DNA of 32,000 nucleotides from Candidatus Thorarchaeota archaeon. Lineage in GTDB: Archaea; Asgardarchaeota; Heimdallarchaeia; Hodarchaeales; Hodarchaeaceae. This document shows, piece after piece, positions 8,779 to 14,921 of this stretch; within the stretch, counting starts at the first letter, position 1; every line of letters starts with the position of its first letter. The stretch spans positions 197,204 to 229,203 of the forward strand of contig JBHLRO010000005.1 of the NCBI GenBank assembly GCA_048882505.1, given 5' to 3'. The notes under the pieces are model-generated. The model was not told the DNA's origin, ran no database searches, and worked only from the letters and a program-made list of their open reading frames with translations. The position numbers and the translations under genes were made by a program.

Positions 8779-9573
8779 CTACAATCGTTGAATGGTATTC
8801 CCCGAAATGAAAATTTTTCCTTTTTCGGCTTCTCCCTTTATAACGTCTTCAACAAGTCCAAAATCCAGTCCCTTATTCTGAGCGAGCTTTTTTAGTTTAT
8901 TAAGAGTTATTGGCGAACTTCCAATTGAATTTAAAAACTCTTGGGCACTTGTTTTACCGTCAAATACTGATTTCAGGGTGGATTCGATTTCTTTTATCTG
9001 ATCATCCGTGAGAATGGCTTTCTTCCTTGCTCCGTCCGCCATCTGCTTAAAATCCTCCACTGGATCTTCTGAGCTTGTTCGAAAGAAACAGTCCGTGTGA
9101 TAAAGGTTCTTTCCTAAAATCTGTCGGCCGTCAGGTAACTGCACCTCTCCTTCTCGTCGTACAACACGTATTATTCCCTTTTCTATCTTGGATCTACATT
9201 CATGGCATTTTCCTCTTCCACTTTTGGATATCTCAAAATAGGGTGGACGAGGTTTTAACTGTCCCTGATCCTGATAAGTTGAAATATCTTCAAGGTCTAC
9301 TAGGGCTTGCTTTTTATCTGCAGCACTTAACATTGACAAGGGGATTATTTGAGTTCTAAGTTCATCTAAGTATTTTCTCATTTGATCAGGTAAAAGACAC
9401 CTTGGATGATAATATTGATAAGTTTGTATTTCCTGGCCGTTTCCTCTAGAGAAAGTTGATGGAATTCCAATCCTTACTGCCCCTTTTTCTATTTTCTCTC
9501 TGCATCCTCTGCATCCCGCCCGACCAGATTTTGAATATTCAACTAATGGAGAGCGTCCCGTTTCATCAGGCAT
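8779..9573 (-). CDS. Protein with two PARP-type (zf-PARP) zinc fingers and a C-terminal winged-helix-like domain
   Basis: EYSKSGRAGCRGCREKIEKGAVRIG...YYHPRC and EISKSGRGKCHECRSKIEKGIIRV...LYHTDC, both C-x2-C...H-x2-C, each followed by an L-x-x-x-D helix. Start taken as the ATG at 9573 (ORF track extends to 9612). Confidence 0.88.
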   Translation of the reverse strand: MPDETGRSPLVEYSKSGRAGCRGCREKIEKGAVRIGIPSTFSRGNGQEIQTYQYYHPRCLLPDQMRKYLDELRTQIIPLSMLSAADKKQALVDLEDISTYQDQGQLKPRPPYFEISKSGRGKCHECRSKIEKGIIRVVRREGEVQLPDGRQILGKNLYHTDCFFRTSSEDPVEDFKQMADGARKKAILTDDQIKEIESTLKSVFDGKTSAQEFLNSIGSSPITLNKLKKLAQNKGLDFGLVEDVIKGEAEKGKIFISGNTIQRL

Positions 9574-9670
9574 ATCAATCCCCCTTCTCTTCTCAAATAT
9601 AAGGATTTTCAAGGAGCTAAAAAGAAAAATTTATTGAATCATGAGTTCGGGACTGAGCGATTTTTTTGTT

Positions 9671-10621
9671 TTAGGAAAGCAGAATTATTCGGGAGGTTTC
9701 GAGGTTGTTTTCTGTGTCTTCTGGCTTTTTAGGGAATAGTTGGATTGAGGAAATGAACTTTTCTAGGTTATTCGAGATAAATGTCAGCATTTCGGACTTC
9801 AGCGTATCAAAAGTATGCATCTCTGGAATTTTATATGTAAAGAAGACAAAAATCTTATCAAAACATTTAAAATGCCATATTACGCTAGAAGATAGCTGTT
9901 TGGATCCAATTAGGGTTTCAGATTTAAACTTCGAGCCTACATACTGTCTTTTTATATAATGAGATATAGCGGTTAAAAGCGGATCAGCTATATCAACTTC
10001 TGGCTTTTTTGAAGTTGAAAAAAGGAATTTACCTTCATCATTGTAAACCAAAATGAACGATACGACATCAGTAAGATCCCTCTTGATTCGATCCAAAACT
10101 CGCCAATAGATCGCTACATCTTCGCTTAAAGGTGCTACGACGGTTTTCTCAAAATTAACCTCCAAATTACCGAAGAGAAGCTCTCGTACGTCGTCTTTTA
10201 GGGGAGAAATCTGCTTTAAGAGCGAAATCGGTAGCTGTTGAAAATCTGGGGAAGTTGAGAGGCTGATTAGCGATATTCCCTGTTTTGTCTTCGCATAATC
10301 CAGGTACAAAGGTTCTTTATCCCTTTTATCACCCGCAACCTTAATGATTATGGGACTTACAATTTCCTTTAGCTGCATAATGGCTTCAATCAATCCCGAC
10401 ATCAGGAGGATGTTTTCATTGGATGATGAGATTTCTAAATCCAAATCCTCGATTCTACCATTCCACTCATTTATGTGAATACCTCGAGTAAATATTGGCA
10501 AGCCGCCCTCGTCGGAAAGAATGACCAAGATACTGTTTCCTCTTAAAGATGAGGAGGCACGAAGGATTTCCGCTTTTTCCTCGTGGAACCATTCTCCAAT
10601 GGAAATAATCCTGTCTTCCAA
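9671..10621 (-). CDS. Tandem longin/roadblock-like domain protein
   Basis: Two units with longin-like pattern: ILVILSDEGGLPIFTR...LLMSGLIEAIMQL and FILVYNDEGKFLFST...DPLLTAISHY. Confidence 0.6.
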   Translation of the reverse strand: MEDRIISIGEWFHEEKAEILRASSSLRGNSILVILSDEGGLPIFTRGIHINEWNGRIEDLDLEISSSNENILLMSGLIEAIMQLKEIVSPIIIKVAGDKRDKEPLYLDYAKTKQGISLISLSTSPDFQQLPISLLKQISPLKDDVRELLFGNLEVNFEKTVVAPLSEDVAIYWRVLDRIKRDLTDVVSFILVYNDEGKFLFSTSKKPEVDIADPLLTAISHYIKRQYVGSKFKSETLIGSKQLSSSVIWHFKCFDKIFVFFTYKIPEMHTFDTLKSEMLTFISNNLEKFISSIQLFPKKPEDTENNLETSRIILLS

Positions 10622-10780: not shown

Positions 10781-11815
10781 TTACATAAATCCTCTTTCTA
10801 AGAGCTGATTCCATGTGATTTGGCCGAAGAGATATAAAAATTCTTGAAATGTGATCAGCGGACGGTTATATCTAATGATGTCATCCAAAGCTATACGGGG
10901 ACAAGCTGTGTTTACCCAGGCATCAATCCATGTGAAATTAGCCAGATACGAAGGCGTTATTGTTTTTCCCACTAGTTCAACAAACGTAAATTTTGTTTCA
11001 CTTAGTATCCTGGAGGCACGCTTATGGGGATTTGGTTGCCATTGTCCATGCTTAAGGCTGCTTACTATTCCCCAGGTTGTCGCCTTTCGTGCCTTCTCAA
11101 TTACCGCAAACCGCTTTTTGATCAGTGCATTCCTTTCTGAGATTGTGTACAATGATAGATCACCAGTGAAGGGATCAATCTGAAGGATCGGCCAAGAAGT
11201 TAAGAAAAGCAAGGCTCTTGTATGGAAATTTCCTGGGTGAAGACTAACGATACCGTCAATATCGTTGGCTCCGAATTCGGTCTTTGATTTGCCAATGTAA
11301 CAACCCAAAATTTGCCCACCTTGCTGAGAAATGGTAGATTCGATTTGATGTGCTTCGAACTGATGTTTTATGTTGTGTAAATACATCATATGCTGAGCGG
11401 TGGCAGTTAATCCCACTTTTTTCCAATTTAGCTCTCTAATCTTGTTAATTATTTTTGGGAAGTCAATTCGATAATTCTCAATGCGAGCAGGAACCAATAC
11501 CACATCTATCATATTTTCAGCACTGTGTACCCGCTGTTCAAAACCAAAGGAAGTGTGACCATAATGGATTAAGGCATCTACCTCCAGTTCAATCGCTGTA
11601 TCAACCGCAAGATCACAAACTCCATAAGATGGCTCACCTTCCACAAATACGGTAATATTCAGTGCCTTTAATGCCGAGAGAACTTCTTGGAGAGGATGAT
11701 TCAACATCCCCTCTGGCATCTGGACAAGGACTCTATTCCATCCCTTATTTTGAATAGTCTTCGTTAATGAAGGAATGTCGAGGTCATAATCGATTTTCAC
11801 GCTGTTTTCATCCAC
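10781..11815 (-). CDS. dph2: Diphthamide biosynthesis enzyme Dph2 (2-(3-amino-3-carboxypropyl)histidine synthase)
   Basis: YDLD...RVLVQMPEG, PSYGVCD, HYGH, GQILGC, WVNTACPRIA-x-DD: all three [4Fe-4S] Cys present. Homology begins near GTG 11815; the track's 69-aa N-extension looks non-coding. Confidence 0.92.
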   Translation of the reverse strand: MDENSVKIDYDLDIPSLTKTIQNKGWNRVLVQMPEGMLNHPLQEVLSALKALNITVFVEGEPSYGVCDLAVDTAIELEVDALIHYGHTSFGFEQRVHSAENMIDVVLVPARIENYRIDFPKIINKIRELNWKKVGLTATAQHMMYLHNIKHQFEAHQIESTISQQGGQILGCYIGKSKTEFGANDIDGIVSLHPGNFHTRALLFLTSWPILQIDPFTGDLSLYTISERNALIKKRFAVIEKARKATTWGIVSSLKHGQWQPNPHKRASRILSETKFTFVELVGKTITPSYLANFTWIDAWVNTACPRIALDDIIRYNRPLITFQEFLYLFGQITWNQLLERGFM

Positions 11816-11849
11816 TATTCCGTCTAAATACAACCGAGGGGGAAAAAAA

Positions 11850-11855
11850 TTATAA
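11850..11855. promoter_or_regulatory. Probable shared bidirectional TATA box (TTATAA)
   Basis: Self-complementary TTATAA preceded by a purine-rich BRE-like GGAAAAAAA; 26 bp from GTG 11881 (+) and 35 bp from GTG 11815 (-). Confidence 0.4.
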
Positions 11856-11880
11856 GAGTGATTTAGTGAAACCGGAAATC

Positions 11881-12807
11881 GTGTTGGATACCTTACTTGA
11901 ATCAGCTGGAATTGTCTCAGAAGGTCAACGGATAAAACTGCTTTGTGCCCCAGACTACATTTTTTTTCGAACACATAGTCATATGCTCTATCGAGAGTTT
12001 CGTGGTATCCCCAAGTACTCAATTATTACCCGAAAAATTACGGAAAAAAGCTACAATTGGAAAACAACACCGAAAGAATGCTCTTTAAAGTCTCTCTATA
12101 TCATTGACGGTTCCACAGGTCTTAAGACAGCCCCTTTTTTCTTTCAATTGGCAAGCCATTTAAGAATTTCTATTGTTGGATCAAACATCAACTTTTTTGT
12201 CCTTCCCCGGCTAAGATTCGAAAGTGCTTCAAATCCTAAACTGGTCTTCAAACCTTATCATCCATATTATCTCATTAGCAGTCATCTTCATAGGCATAAG
12301 CCGGTAGATGATAGGGGATTGGAAACAAAGGCAGTCATACTTCCACCCTCCTCTCAGCTGTTCCTAGAAGAAGAGAACTCGGTTCCGCCCAAAAACGCGA
12401 TAGCTATCGGGGCTACTGGTGACGTGAGCGACTTCTTTCCAACCTCATTTGATATTTTGAGAGTAAATTTAGGTGATCTGATCGAATACGATCAACACCT
12501 CGATTTAGGTGCGAATCTAAGGGAACAGATATTAAATAAGCTCGAGCTCCTAATCTCGGCCTTTAATATTCCCTGCGTGCTTGTTTCAGTTTATAAAATT
12601 GCAAAGTTCCTGAACTCCCTGGGCGGTAAAAGCTCAGTTGCTTCGCAGATGGCTAGGGTTCAAGAAATATGCAATTCATGGAGATTTTCAGAAGTTCTTC
12701 TCGTAAATAATGAGAAACGAAGGATTTGGGATTTGATTTCTCTACATACGCTCCCTGAGGTATATGACAAGTACGCTTACCTAGTTTTCTTCAATCCCTC
12801 GAAATGA
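11881..12807 (+). CDS. Hypothetical protein (about 308 aa), divergent from dph2
   Basis: Only long ORF in the interval; no family recognised; start placed at GTG 11881 from TATA spacing (track start 11767 overlaps dph2). Confidence 0.55.
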   Translation: MLDTLLESAGIVSEGQRIKLLCAPDYIFFRTHSHMLYREFRGIPKYSIITRKITEKSYNWKTTPKECSLKSLYIIDGSTGLKTAPFFFQLASHLRISIVGSNINFFVLPRLRFESASNPKLVFKPYHPYYLISSHLHRHKPVDDRGLETKAVILPPSSQLFLEEENSVPPKNAIAIGATGDVSDFFPTSFDILRVNLGDLIEYDQHLDLGANLREQILNKLELLISAFNIPCVLVSVYKIAKFLNSLGGKSSVASQMARVQEICNSWRFSEVLLVNNEKRRIWDLISLHTLPEVYDKYAYLVFFNPSK

Positions 12808-13634: not shown

Positions 13635-13745
13635 CTCTTCTGGTCGGAGACCTATTCGGTTATAGAGACTCCCGGTGCTATGTCGATATTATCCCATGAT
13701 TTATCTTGTTCAAACTTCAATATACCTGATATGCTGGCTGGTAAC

Positions 13746-14921
13746 ATGCAGATTAACTTTATAGAGGAGTTTTTGCTTTTCCTGGAGGTAGAGAAGAACT
13801 ATTCGGCAAAAACAATTAAGGAATATTCGTATGATCTGGAATTATTCAAACAATCCTTATCGTCTGAAGGGTTGGACAAGAAGATCGAGAAGGCAACTAC
13901 GACAGATGTTCGCCGTTTCCTCCTTTTTCTAAAACGGGATAAAGATTACGCTCCACGAAGTCTGCATAGGAAAATATGCGCTCTAAAATCGTTTTATAAG
14001 TACCTAAGAAAAGCAGGTTATATTACTACTAATCCAGTAGAACAGATAGAATCTCCAAAAATACCCAAATCCTTGCCAAAGACGGTTACAGTTGATGAAG
14101 TCTTTCGACTCCTATCGTCTCCAGGAGGAGAACGTGATGCCTCAATCCTGTATTTACTTAGAAACGAAATTAATCTACCCCAAAGTAACATGGGTGCCAA
14201 TTTTCAGTTCAATCTTGCGACGGACACAATCCTTATTGAAAATAACAACGGGTATGCCAACAGTTTAATTCCCATTCCTGAGCTGATACTCTCAGTTTTA
14301 CAAACTAGGCAAAAGACTGAACCAATGGAAAAAAACAATACAATATCGCTTTTCGAGATGTTAACCAAGCTCTCCAGCCCTATAAATCTCAGAGACAAGA
14401 CTATCTTGTACCTGCTTTACGGTACAGGATTACGGGTGTCAGAACTTAGTAATTTGAACACGGAACATATTGATATCCCTAATAGAGTCATCCGTGTTGA
14501 AGGCGGGAAAGGCAACAAAGATCGGATTATTCCGTTACCAGACCTGCTTGTGCCTATTCTTACAGAATACATATCTTCTTACTTCAGTAAATTCAATCGT
14601 AAGGATTCAGCATTGATATTAAACCAGAGGGGAACTCGCTTAACTCCACGCTCCATTCAACGCATTGTCAAAAAGCATAGGAAGCTAGCTGGATTAAACG
14701 ACAAGAGACTTACTCCTCATACCTTACGGCACGCATTTGCAACTCATCTTCTCTCCAACTCGGTTGACATTCGAGTAATACAAGAATTATTGGGTCATGC
14801 CTCACTGTCCACAACACAACTATACACTCATGTATCTCTATCTCATCTAAGAAAATCCTACGATTCCGGACATCCCTTATCAACTGTTAATAGAGACAAA
14901 AAGTTCGCATTCGATGGTTAG
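13746..14921 (+). CDS. xerA: XerA/XerC-D family tyrosine recombinase with an 86-aa internal degenerate duplication
   Basis: SAM-like N-domain (EKNYSAKTIKEY...RKICALKSFYKYL); catalytic set intact: GLRVSEL (R), GKGNKDR (K), HTLRH, LLGH, TQLYTH. Start probably ATG 13746 (track 13680). Confidence 0.92.
   Translation: MQINFIEEFLLFLEVEKNYSAKTIKEYSYDLELFKQSLSSEGLDKKIEKATTTDVRRFLLFLKRDKDYAPRSLHRKICALKSFYKYLRKAGYITTNPVEQIESPKIPKSLPKTVTVDEVFRLLSSPGGERDASILYLLRNEINLPQSNMGANFQFNLATDTILIENNNGYANSLIPIPELILSVLQTRQKTEPMEKNNTISLFEMLTKLSSPINLRDKTILYLLYGTGLRVSELSNLNTEHIDIPNRVIRVEGGKGNKDRIIPLPDLLVPILTEYISSYFSKFNRKDSALILNQRGTRLTPRSIQRIVKKHRKLAGLNDKRLTPHTLRHAFATHLLSNSVDIRVIQELLGHASLSTTQLYTHVSLSHLRKSYDSGHPLSTVNRDKKFAFDG

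What the first reader, a model, noticed from the sequence alone, without database searches (positions are those of the whole stretch)
8779..9573. Stand-alone archaeal protein with two PARP1-like zinc fingers and a winged helix
Seen: two complete CCHC zf-PARP motifs (C34/C37/H69/C72 and C136/C139/H172/C175, track numbering) with the KSGR-x-x-C and KIEKG-x-x-R signatures, then a wHTH-like tail; no catalytic PARP or ligase domain. Known: tandem zf-PARP fingers are DNA-break sensors of eukaryotic PARP1 (one copy in ligase III) and are rare in prokaryotes. Inference: a nick/break sensor and a candidate eukaryotic-signature protein relevant to the origin of the PARP1 sensing module.
Basis: partly seen in the sequence, partly recalled or inferred. 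Interest (0 to 1): 0.72.

Follow-up and report, generated by a model that had tools for sequence, protein, structure and literature searches.

The report
Archaeal PARP-type fingers with MCM-like tail
A Heimdall-group (Asgard) archaeon encodes a small, enzyme-free protein that joins two genuine PARP1-type DNA-break-sensing zinc fingers to a winged-helix tail of the kind that ends its replicative helicase MCM; it probably ties DNA nicks or gaps to the replication machinery, but its function has not been tested.

Summary
Window 8779-9573 (-) encodes a 264-aa protein with two complete CCHC zf-PARP fingers (Pfam PF00645, 91 bits) and a C-terminal winged helix, with no catalytic domain. The fold model matches PARP1 Zn1/Zn2. 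The DNA-gripping arginine is invariant in both fingers, and dN/dS is 0.14.

The tail is not a generic wHTH. Its family profile finds only the last 45 residues of the genome's own MCM among 25,796 ORFs (E 2e-5). It also finds the Sulfolobus MCM winged helix as best PDB sequence match, and hhalign gives 96%.

The gene is present in 19 of 21 genomes of its genus. Other Heimdall families and a second Asgard group (probably Thorarchaeia) carry the finger in other architectures.

No macrodomain or WGR domain was found in the genome. None of the searches for a PARP catalytic domain found one, but its control was silent. ADP-ribosylation coupling is therefore unlikely.

The finger tree places these fingers neither inside a bacterial clade nor as sister to PARP1. 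Orthology of the tandem with Zn1-Zn2 is not supported and not rejected.

The presence of zf-PARP in Heimdall- and Thorarchaeia is already published (Eme et al. 2023, supplement). I did not find the finger-plus-MCM-type-tail architecture described in the papers searched.

This scan reached the same reading earlier on two other Hodarchaeales genomes (e1-5444095, e1-5454594).

The parts
8779..9573 (-). Whole gene, 264 codons plus stop: zf-PARP finger A, linker, zf-PARP finger B, helical spacer, winged helix
   Evidence: ORF and translation. Pfam PF00645 at 91.4 bits, two stretches. dN/dS 0.14 against the 87%-identical orthologue. Present in 19 of 21 genomes of the genus.
9289..9552 (-). Finger A (residues 8-95): zinc ligands C21, C24, H56, C59; backbone-grip R18 and R34; followed by the helix 62-95
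   Evidence: Pfam stretch 12-88. VIA-align Z 9.1-9.4, rmsd 2.6-3.1 A over 85-87 residues, to PARP1 Zn1/Zn2. R18, C21, C24, R34, H56 and C59 are invariant or nearly so in the family. Net charge +5.
9250..9288 (-). Flexible linker between the fingers (residues 96-108)
   Evidence: pLDDT drops to about 60, and below 50 at residues 101-103. Length is variable across orthologues. In genome G015 an Ssb-like OB fold (PF21473, E 2e-13) is inserted here.
9070..9249 (-). Finger B (residues 109-168): zinc ligands C123, C126, H159, C162; R120 and R136; invariant L146 and R150 in the loop
   Evidence: Second PF00645 stretch, 35-36 bits on its own. Invariant columns. Forms its own clade at 100/99 in the finger tree. 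Net charge +5.
8962..9069 (-). Helical spacer (residues 169-204), two to three helices leading into the winged helix
   Evidence: Helices 171-184 and 190-216 at pLDDT about 90. The tail profile aligns from this region onward with the C-terminal fragment of Sulfolobus MCM, 2m45 residues 12-86.
8782..8961 (-). MCM-type winged helix (residues 205-264) at the extreme C-terminus
   Evidence: Helix-helix-helix-strand-strand topology. Z 8.4 to P. abyssi Rpa2 WH, 7.9 to SsoMCM WH, 7.6 to MthMCM WH. The family profile's only non-self hit in the own genome is the last 45 aa of MCM, E 2.3e-5. hhalign against the genus's MCM tails: 96.4%, E 1e-9. PDB profile search: best hit 2m45 MCM WH, E 1.2e-4.
9574..9670 (-). 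97-nt upstream spacer with an A+T-rich stretch and a GGGGG run 8 nt before the ATG; possible own promoter and ribosome-binding site
   Evidence: Read directly from the sequence. This is inference only and was not tested.

Best explanation
This is an enzyme-free adaptor protein.

The two basic PARP1-type zinc fingers most likely bind DNA strand discontinuities (nicks, gaps, ends or ss/ds junctions) without sequence specificity. They would do so through the same arginine 'phosphate backbone grip' and loop that PARP1 Zn1/Zn2 use.

The near-neutral C-terminal winged helix is homologous to the winged helix that ends archaeal MCM. It most likely acts as a protein-contact module, not a DNA reader. 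It would bring to the lesion, or sequester there, a factor that normally recognises the MCM tail. In Sulfolobus that factor is the initiator Orc1-1.

The net effect would be to couple DNA damage to replication, either by restart/loading or by a brake on initiation.

Shown: domain identities, conservation, purifying selection, and the specific MCM-type nature of the tail.
Inferred: break binding.
Speculative: the partner and the direction of the effect.
For: Fingers:
- Pfam 91 bits.
- Best PDB sequence matches are PARP1 F1F2/Zn2 and the ligase III finger.
- Foldseek top hits are PARP1 F1F2 on nicked DNA: 2n8a E 7e-10 and 9mi8.
- VIA Z 9.1-9.4.
- R18 and R120 align with PARP1 R18/R122, named as the backbone grip in PMC8150716, and are invariant.
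- Both fingers carry +5 net charge.

Related variant: an orthologue in genome G015 has an Ssb-like ssDNA-binding OB fold inserted between the fingers. This fits recognition of gaps or junctions.

Tail:
- Its only non-self match in the genome is the MCM C-terminus, E 2.3e-5, with the next hit near E 1.
- hhalign 96.4%.
- Best PDB profile hit is the SsoMCM WH, 2m45, E 1.2e-4, followed by RPA32 and MCM8 WHs.
- The fold is a winged helix.
- The WH is near-neutral and the MCM WHs are acidic, unlike a typical DNA-reading helix.
- The archaeal MCM wH contacts ORB-bound Orc1-1 (PMC12141716).

Selection: dN/dS is 0.11, 0.09 and 0.18 for finger A, finger B and tail. The gene is kept in 19 of 21 genomes of the genus.

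Independence from ADP-ribosylation: no macrodomain or WGR domain was found in the 94.6%-complete genome, and no PARP catalytic domain was found.

Precedent: fission-yeast Hpz1 is an enzyme-free zf-PARP protein that delays S-phase entry.
Against: - There is no experiment and no expression data.
- The target's own tail has lost the G-x-[IL]-[FY]-E-P-x-P-G end motif shared by most orthologues and by MCM; it reads KIFISGNT instead. Pairwise BLAST of the target against its own MCM is not significant. The MCM link therefore rests on family profiles.
- By structure alone the tail ties with many generic wHTH domains, and its top hit is Rpa2, not MCM.
- The exact equivalent of PARP1's base-stacking residues could not be fixed in the loops.
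- Gene neighbours (Dph2, a 316-aa unknown protein, a GDSL hydrolase) give no replication or repair link, and their order is conserved only within the genus.
- The protein evolves fast, at 31-37% identity across a genus in which MCM is 67-78% and Orc1 79-84% identical. That is unusual for a core replication factor.
- PARP1 fingers also bind undamaged DNA.
Confidence: 0.55

Rival explanations
1. It is a general DNA-binding or chromatin protein, or a transcription regulator. In this reading the winged helix reads DNA as an ordinary wHTH. The fingers only add non-specific DNA affinity, and there is no link to breaks or to replication.
For: By structure the tail matches many transcription-factor wHTH domains (MarR, PadR, HxlR, IclR) at Z 7.0-8.0, within one unit of the MCM and Rpa2 hits. 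The target's tail carries +2 net charge. PARP1 is also a chromatin architectural protein that binds intact DNA (abstract of PMC6135609).
Against: Sequence profiles single out MCM's tail and no transcription-factor family, and Pfam finds no HTH family. The presumed recognition helix is acidic in the target (-3), and the family mean for the WH is -1.2. The OB-fold insertion in one orthologue points to ssDNA-containing structures.
Confidence: 0.17
2. The tail is an RPA32-type winged helix, not an MCM-type one. The protein would then recruit the partners of archaeal Rpa2 (PolD, primase) or repair enzymes to ssDNA gaps. This would be a gap-filling or repair adaptor, not an initiation-linked one.
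For: The best structural match of the tail is the P. abyssi Rpa2 WH (9f27: Z 8.4, rmsd 1.5 A, 58 residues, 21% identity) and its complex with PolD (9f2a, Z 8.3). RPA32 WH is the third family in the PDB profile search, E 0.19. An Ssb/RPA-like OB fold sits between the fingers in one orthologue.
Against: The sequence evidence for MCM is about a thousand-fold stronger: 1.2e-4 against 0.19. In the own genome no RPA ORF is hit, only MCM. The Z scores differ by less than 1 and are therefore tied.
Confidence: 0.13
3. It is a remnant or a recently transferred bacterial two-finger protein with no archaeal-specific role.
For: Bacterial stand-alone two-finger proteins of 170-220 aa are collinear with both fingers at 31-37% identity. 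In the tree bacterial finger A groups with Asgard family f5 at 99/90.
Against: The f1 fingers do not nest in any bacterial clade. The gene is syntenic and under purifying selection across the genus. The bacterial proteins lack the MCM-type tail (their matches end near residue 170).
Confidence: 0.05

Closest known systems
Human PARP1 N-terminal DNA-break sensor, Zn1-Zn2 / F1-F2 (PDB 2n8a, 4av1, 3od8, 3odc, 9mi8)
   Same: Both have two tandem CCHC zf-PARP fingers joined by a flexible linker. They share the fold (Z 9.1-9.4) and the conserved backbone-grip arginine in each finger. The best sequence and structure matches are to this module.
   Different: There is no Zn3/PADR1, BRCT, WGR or catalytic domain, and no macrodomain or WGR domain was found in the genome. 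The output is therefore not ADP-ribosylation. The ML tree does not pair fingers A and B with Zn1 and Zn2. The base-stacking residues were not matched with confidence.
C-terminal winged helix of archaeal MCM (S. solfataricus 2m45, M. thermautotrophicus 2ma3), the module that contacts Orc1-1
   Same: Both show the same fold at the extreme C-terminus. Profile homology is significant: E 1.2e-4 to 2m45, E 2.3e-5 to the genome's own MCM, hhalign 96%. Most family members share the G-x-[IL]-[FY]-E-P-x-P-G end motif.
   Different: The tail is attached to zinc fingers, not to an AAA+ helicase. The target itself has lost the E-P-x-P-G motif. Binding to Orc1/Cdc6 is not shown.
Schizosaccharomyces pombe Hpz1 (PMC3435320)
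   Same: It is a small (246 aa) enzyme-free protein built on a PARP-type zinc finger. It is linked to replication control: its loss advances S-phase entry and causes UV and HU sensitivity.
   Different: It has one finger and an acidic tail, not two fingers and a winged helix. It is eukaryotic. No orthology was tested.
Bacterial stand-alone two-finger zf-PARP proteins (Myxococcota, Planctomycetota and others)
   Same: Two collinear fingers and no enzyme domain, at 31-37% identity over residues 9-143.
   Different: They are only about 170-220 aa and have no MCM-type tail. Their finger B forms a separate long-branch clade.
Plant ZDP (polynucleotide 3'-phosphatase with several zf-PARP fingers) and DNA ligase III
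   Same: They use the same finger for strand-break recognition. Plant multi-finger proteins are the highest-scoring non-family hits. The ligase III finger scores E 5.8e-8.
   Different: Their fingers are fused to a repair enzyme. Here there is no enzyme.

Membership tests
zf-PARP zinc finger (Pfam PF00645) | Profile score above the curated cut-off | tested here: met
   91.4 bits against a cut-off of 39.3, with two stretches. Finger A alone scores 59.5 bits. Finger B alone scores 35-36 bits, just under the cut-off.
zf-PARP zinc finger (Pfam PF00645) | C-x2-C-x(about 30)-H-x2-C zinc ligands in each finger | tested here: met
   C21-x2-C24-x31-H56-x2-C59 and C123-x2-C126-x32-H159-x2-C162. All eight ligands are invariant or nearly so in 26 family members.
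zf-PARP zinc finger (Pfam PF00645) | Fold of PARP1 Zn1/Zn2 | tested here: met
   Model pLDDT 85. Z 9.1-9.4, rmsd 2.6-3.1 A over 85-87 residues, to 4opx, 4av1, 3od8 and 3odc. Foldseek E 7e-10 to 2n8a.
zf-PARP zinc finger (Pfam PF00645) | Phosphate-backbone-grip arginine (PARP1 R18 / R122) | tested here: met
   R18 and R120 align with PARP1 R18/R122 and are invariant. Their role is taken from PMC8150716.
zf-PARP zinc finger (Pfam PF00645) | Hydrophobic base-stacking loop residue(s) | tested here: inconclusive
   The loops are retained, with near-invariant F41 and invariant G46 in finger A and invariant L146 in finger B. The loop alignment to PARP1 has gaps, and I had no model coordinates to check the equivalence.
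zf-PARP zinc finger (Pfam PF00645) | Zinc binding and preference for DNA strand breaks | not testable with these tools
   Needs purified protein.
PARP1-type poly(ADP-ribose) polymerase | PARP catalytic domain, with WGR and a regulatory domain | tested here: not met
   None is present in the protein. The whole-genome search found no PF00644, but its control was silent, so genome-wide absence is not shown. No WGR was found, and that control rang. The protein is not a PARP.
Archaeal MCM C-terminal winged helix | Sequence-profile homology to MCM WH domains | tested here: met
   The family profile against the own genome has one non-self hit, the MCM tail, at E 2.3e-5. hhalign 96.4%, E 1e-9. PDB 2m45 at E 1.2e-4. 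Pairwise BLAST of the target alone is not significant.
Archaeal MCM C-terminal winged helix | Winged-helix fold at the extreme C-terminus | tested here: met
   Helix-helix-helix-strand-strand over residues 205-264. Z 7.9 to 2m45 and 7.6 to 2ma3, tied with Rpa2 WH at 8.4 and with generic wHTH domains.
Archaeal MCM C-terminal winged helix | Terminal G-x-[IL]-[FY]-E-P-x-P-G motif shared by the genus's MCMs | tested here: not met
   The motif is present in most orthologues (for example ...GIYFEPSPG...) but is replaced by KGKIFISGNT in the target and its closest relatives.
Archaeal MCM C-terminal winged helix | Binding to Orc1/Cdc6 | not testable with these tools
   The one co-folding job gave no verdict (see Tried and rejected). 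A pull-down or two-hybrid assay is needed.
MCM helicase | AAA+ MCM P-loop domain, OB domain and N-terminal domain | tested here: not met
   No PF00493, PF17207 or PF14551 in the protein. The genome's MCM is a separate gene on contig C2.
RPA32 / Rpa2 C-terminal winged helix | Profile or fold similarity specific to RPA32 WH | tested here: inconclusive
   This is the top structural hit (9f27, Z 8.4), but sequence E is only 0.19. No RPA ORF of the own genome was hit.

The most novel reading that the evidence does not exclude
The protein is a damage-to-replication switch in the archaeal lineage closest to eukaryotes. When its PARP-type fingers clamp a nick or gap, the MCM-mimicking winged helix engages the initiator Orc1/Cdc6 or another reader of the MCM tail. 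This would either load MCM away from origins (replication restart) or compete with MCM and hold back initiation, a checkpoint-like brake as seen for fission-yeast Hpz1. That would make it a pre-eukaryotic strand-break signalling device that works without ADP-ribose.
Probability: 0.12. Interest if true: 0.8.

Novelty: new variant of a known kind. Interest (0 to 1): 0.5.

Why it matters
PARP-type fingers are the first responders to DNA strand breaks in eukaryotes, and their origin is unclear. Their presence in Heimdall- and Thorarchaeia has been noted in print only in one supplementary paragraph, without architecture or function.

This report shows three things for the Hodarchaeales-type lineage. 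The fingers come as a conserved tandem. They are uncoupled from any detectable ADP-ribosylation machinery. They are fused to an MCM-type winged helix.

That gives a concrete, cheap hypothesis to test: nick binding plus recruitment of a replication factor. It also gives a defined pair of domains for biochemistry.

The work tempers the evolutionary claim as well. With 78 alignable columns the data do not show that this tandem is the ancestor of PARP1 Zn1-Zn2.

Tried and rejected
- Pairwise BLASTP of the target against its own MCM found nothing significant. The link appears only with family profiles.
- Single-sequence AlphaFold gave a poor model for the fingers (pLDDT 44). It was replaced by the alignment-based model.
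The single-protein scan found one close relative and four bacterial loci.
- The search for homologous proteins found only two close relatives. The exhaustive representative search was needed.
- Complex prediction of the probable initiator Orc1/Cdc6 (alignment A5) with the tail (alignment A4) returned no answer. The score was 0.05 against a mark of 0.32, and controls were not run. This is neither support nor evidence against binding. Only one of at least four Orc1/Cdc6 paralogues was tried.
- The look-up of sequencing runs listed no RNA holder. Four sediment or metagenome DNA runs hold the stretch, one of them probably the source.
- Synteny: Dph2, the 316-aa protein and the finger gene run in that order on one strand, facing a GDSL-hydrolase gene and a membrane-protein gene on the other. 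This order is conserved across the genus but not beside the finger genes of other families, so it carries no functional signal.
- The PF00644 genome search found nothing, but none of its 14 control genomes rang, so it cannot show absence.
- The AU test of 'finger A + PARP1 Zn1 form one clade' gave p 0.255 and is not rejected. The phylogeny stays unresolved.
- The OB insert of the G015 orthologue against the middle domain of the f5 proteins gave BLAST E 0.19-0.54, so no link is shown.
- The gene context of bacterial relatives (L064-L066) was abandoned. ORF calling in these high-GC loci was too noisy without a gene caller.
- Langelier 2011 (PMC3060520) is not held. Residue roles were taken from the review PMC8150716. 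Its Zn2 loop numbering (L161/I164) does not fit the chain numbering seen, so I did not rely on it.
Full report
**Observation**

On the minus strand of the window, an ATG at 9573 opens a 264-codon frame that stops at 8779-8781. The ATG lies 8 nt after a GGGGG run. Subtracting 13 gives C21/C24/H56/C59 and C123/C126/H159/C162, with KSGRxxC and KIEKGxxR in both halves, exactly as described.

Pfam scores zf-PARP (PF00645) at E 6.4e-26, 91.4 bits against a cut-off of 39.3, in two stretches. It finds nothing else credible, and NCBIfam finds nothing. The best PDB sequence matches are PARP1 F1F2 and Zn2 (2n8a, E 4e-13) and the DNA ligase III finger.

**Organism and conservation**

- The window is contig C5:197204-229203 of a 4.3-Mb, 94.6%-complete genome.
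- Its nearest relative is 87% identical in this protein. That record is titled 'Candidatus Heimdallarchaeota archaeon'.
- Earlier notes of this scan call the genome Hodarchaeales-type. I did not verify the order. A Dph2 gene sits two genes upstream. Eme et al. write that Hodarchaeales keep a canonical diphthamide-bearing EF-2, which is consistent.
- The gene is the only zf-PARP gene in the genome.
- It is present, full length, in 19 of 21 other genomes of the genus. The two without it are 71% and 83% complete.
- Identity across the genus is only 31-37%, while MCM is 67-78% and Orc1/Cdc6 79-84% identical in the same genomes. The protein therefore evolves fast.
- It is nevertheless under purifying selection. 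dN/dS against the 87% orthologue is 0.14 overall, and 0.11, 0.09 and 0.18 for finger A, finger B and tail.

**Structure**

A 26-sequence alignment gave an AlphaFold model with mean pLDDT 85.

- Foldseek's best hits are PARP1 F1F2 on a DNA nick (2n8a, E 7e-10) and PARP1 N-terminal domains on nicked DNA (9mi8).
- VIA-align gives Z 9.1-9.4, rmsd 2.6-3.1 A over 85-87 residues, to DNA-bound Zn1 and Zn2.
- R18 and R120 align with PARP1 R18/R122, the 'phosphate backbone grip' (PMC8150716). R34 and R136 align with R34/R138. All four are invariant.
- Each finger carries a net charge of +5.
- The base-stacking loops are retained. They have a near-invariant F41 and invariant G46 in finger A, and an invariant L146 in finger B. 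I could not establish residue-by-residue equivalence to PARP1.

**The tail**

Residues 205-264 fold as helix-helix-helix-strand-strand, a winged helix. By structure alone the tail ties with many winged helices. Its top hit is P. abyssi Rpa2 WH at Z 8.4, followed by SsoMCM WH at 7.9, MthMCM WH at 7.6 and MarR/PadR-type regulators at 7-8.

Sequence profiles discriminate between these candidates.

- An HMM of the family's winged helix was searched against all 25,796 six-frame ORFs of the genome. It hits only itself and the last 45 residues of the genome's MCM (E 2.3e-5), aligned end to end. The next hit is at E about 1.
- hhalign of the tail family against the genus's MCM tails gives 96.4% probability, E 1e-9.
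- Against all PDB sequences the tail profile's best hit is the C-terminal winged-helix fragment of Sulfolobus MCM (2m45, E 1.2e-4). Full-length SsoMCM follows at 0.011, then RPA32 WH at 0.19 and MCM8 WH at 0.3.
- Most orthologues end in ...G-x-[IL]-[FY]-F-E-P-S-P-G-x-I-Q-K-L, against ...G-x-L-F-E-P-x-x-G-x-V-K-R-P in the MCMs.

There are two caveats. The target and its closest relatives have lost the E-P-x-P-G part and read KIFISGNT. Pairwise BLAST of the target with its own MCM is also not significant.

The score against Sulfolobus MCM equals that against the genome's own MCM. The tail is therefore 'MCM-type', not demonstrably a recent copy of this lineage's MCM tail.

The winged helix is near-neutral (family mean -1.2) and the MCM tails are acidic at -2 to -6. 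This fits a protein-contact module better than a DNA-reading helix. In Sulfolobus the MCM wH contacts ORB-bound Orc1-1 (PMC12141716).

**Distribution and variants**

PF00645 is found in 101 of 400 Asgard genomes searched.

- It is present in almost all of family f1, and in families f3, f5 and f7 of the same class.
- It is present in about half of a second group, f31.
- It is essentially absent from the rest, for example 1 weak broken match in 135 genomes of f20.

[quoted passage not shown] 2023, Nature, supplement 4.1.3). On that basis f31 is probably Thorarchaeia, which is an inference.

Architectures differ between groups.

- Family f1 has finger-finger-MCM-type WH, about 264 aa.
- One f1 genome (G015) has an Ssb-like OB fold (PF21473, E 2e-13) between the fingers.
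- Family f5 has finger, an unassigned middle domain, finger and a helical tail, about 316 aa.
- Families f3 and f31 have an unassigned N-terminal domain of about 150 aa followed by one finger.

Among 1.84 billion representative proteins only 292 match at E <= 1e-3. About a dozen 50%-identity clusters share the full finger-finger-tail architecture.

**No ADP-ribosylation partner**

Whole-genome searches found no Macro domain and no WGR domain. Their controls rang in 8 and 2 of the 14 control genomes. No PARP catalytic domain was found either, but that control was silent and the search is uninformative. The fingers are therefore very unlikely to feed a PARP-like enzyme here.

**Phylogeny of the fingers**

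A 78-row, 78-column IQ-TREE analysis gave the following.

- f1 finger B forms a clade (100/99).
- f1 finger A is a loose group next to the long-branch bacterial finger B clade.
- Bacterial finger A is sister to f5 finger A (99/90), inside the f31 fingers.
- PARP1 Zn1 and Zn2 group with each other (94/85) and with plant ZDP fingers (95/48).

They are also not sister to eukaryotic fingers. The ML tree favours independent tandem duplications in f1 and in PARP1. An AU test cannot reject finger A + Zn1 as a clade (p 0.255). With so few columns the question stays open.

**Context**

Dph2, a 316-aa protein with no Pfam match and the finger gene lie in that order on one strand. A GDSL-hydrolase gene and a membrane-protein gene lie on the other strand, converging on the finger gene. 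This order is conserved across the genus but not beside finger genes of other families. It reflects shared ancestry, not a functional operon signal.

**Mechanism**

I commit to an enzyme-free adaptor (confidence about 0.55).

- The fingers bind strand discontinuities. This is inferred from conserved contact residues, fold, charge, and the OB-bearing variant.
- The MCM-type winged helix contacts a replication protein. This is inferred from homology and charge.
- The partner is unknown. Orc1/Cdc6 is the best guess from Sulfolobus.

A single co-folding job with the probable initiator Orc1/Cdc6 gave no verdict and counts neither way. No RNA data were found.

The rivals are a plain DNA-binding or regulatory wHTH protein (0.17), an RPA32-type recruitment module (0.13), and a recent bacterial import (0.05).

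**Comparison with what is known, and novelty**

The fingers are bona fide members of PF00645. The protein is not a PARP, a ligase or an MCM.

The closest functional analogue in print is fission-yeast Hpz1. It is an enzyme-free single-finger protein whose loss advances S-phase entry (PMC3435320).

The domain's presence in these archaea is published. I did not find the tandem-finger plus MCM-type-tail architecture in the papers searched.

This scan has already reported the same architecture and the same reading on two other Hodarchaeales genomes (e1-5444095, e1-5454594). I re-derived it independently here.

Verdict: a real, conserved gene that is a new variant of a known kind. Interest is moderate (0.5).

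Noticed in passing
window 9671-10621 (-): A 316-aa protein with no Pfam match lies directly upstream on the same strand, 97 nt away. It is about 52% identical across the genus, better conserved than the finger protein. By eye it has two similar halves, and another first-reader note (e1-5416265) calls it a tandem longin.
   Followed up: partly
L047-L055, L057, L059-L062 (MCM loci of genomes of the same genus): In many genomes of the genus the MCM match is split in two (for example residues 1-422 and 419-693) inside open frames of 830-1756 aa. This suggests one or more inteins in MCM. The window's own genome has an uninterrupted MCM (741-aa frame).
   Followed up: no
L037 (G015:C1:650602-651684): One orthologue of the same genus (368-372 aa, also P0010) carries an Ssb-like OB fold (PF21473, E 2e-13) inserted between the two PARP-type fingers and keeps the MCM-type tail.
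   Followed up: partly
L011, L013, L083 (family f5); L003-L009, L012, L068-L089 (families f3, f31): Other Asgard groups use the finger in other architectures. Family f5 has finger, an unassigned middle domain of about 130 aa (OB-like by eye, not shown), finger and a helical tail. Families f3 and f31 have a conserved, unassigned N-terminal domain of about 150 aa followed by a single finger.
   Followed up: partly
P0004 (1376 aa), P0009, P0019, P0020: The top non-family hits are proteins with 3 to 11 tandem zf-PARP fingers. At least P0020 and P0004 end in a polynucleotide 3'-phosphatase-like (ZDP-type) region, which I read as plant ZDP. Eleven fingers in one protein is striking.
   Followed up: no
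window 13680-14921 (+): A tyrosine recombinase (Phage_integrase plus an N-terminal SAM-like domain, E 4e-47) lies about 4 kb from the finger gene. It is preceded by a 178-aa protein with a weak ArsR-type HTH hit. This may be XerA/XerC-like or may mark an integrated element.
   Followed up: no
L090 (G000:C24:8386-11658): The best-scoring Orc1/Cdc6 gene of the genome lies head to head with a gene that, by its metallophosphoesterase motifs, looks like the PolD small subunit. That arrangement is typical of archaeal replication origins. The genome has at least four Orc1/Cdc6 paralogues, one of them about 3 kb upstream of MCM.
   Followed up: no
window 11767-12807 (+): A 346-aa ORF with no Pfam match overlaps the 5' end of the Dph2 gene on the opposite strand. 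It is probably not a gene.
   Followed up: no
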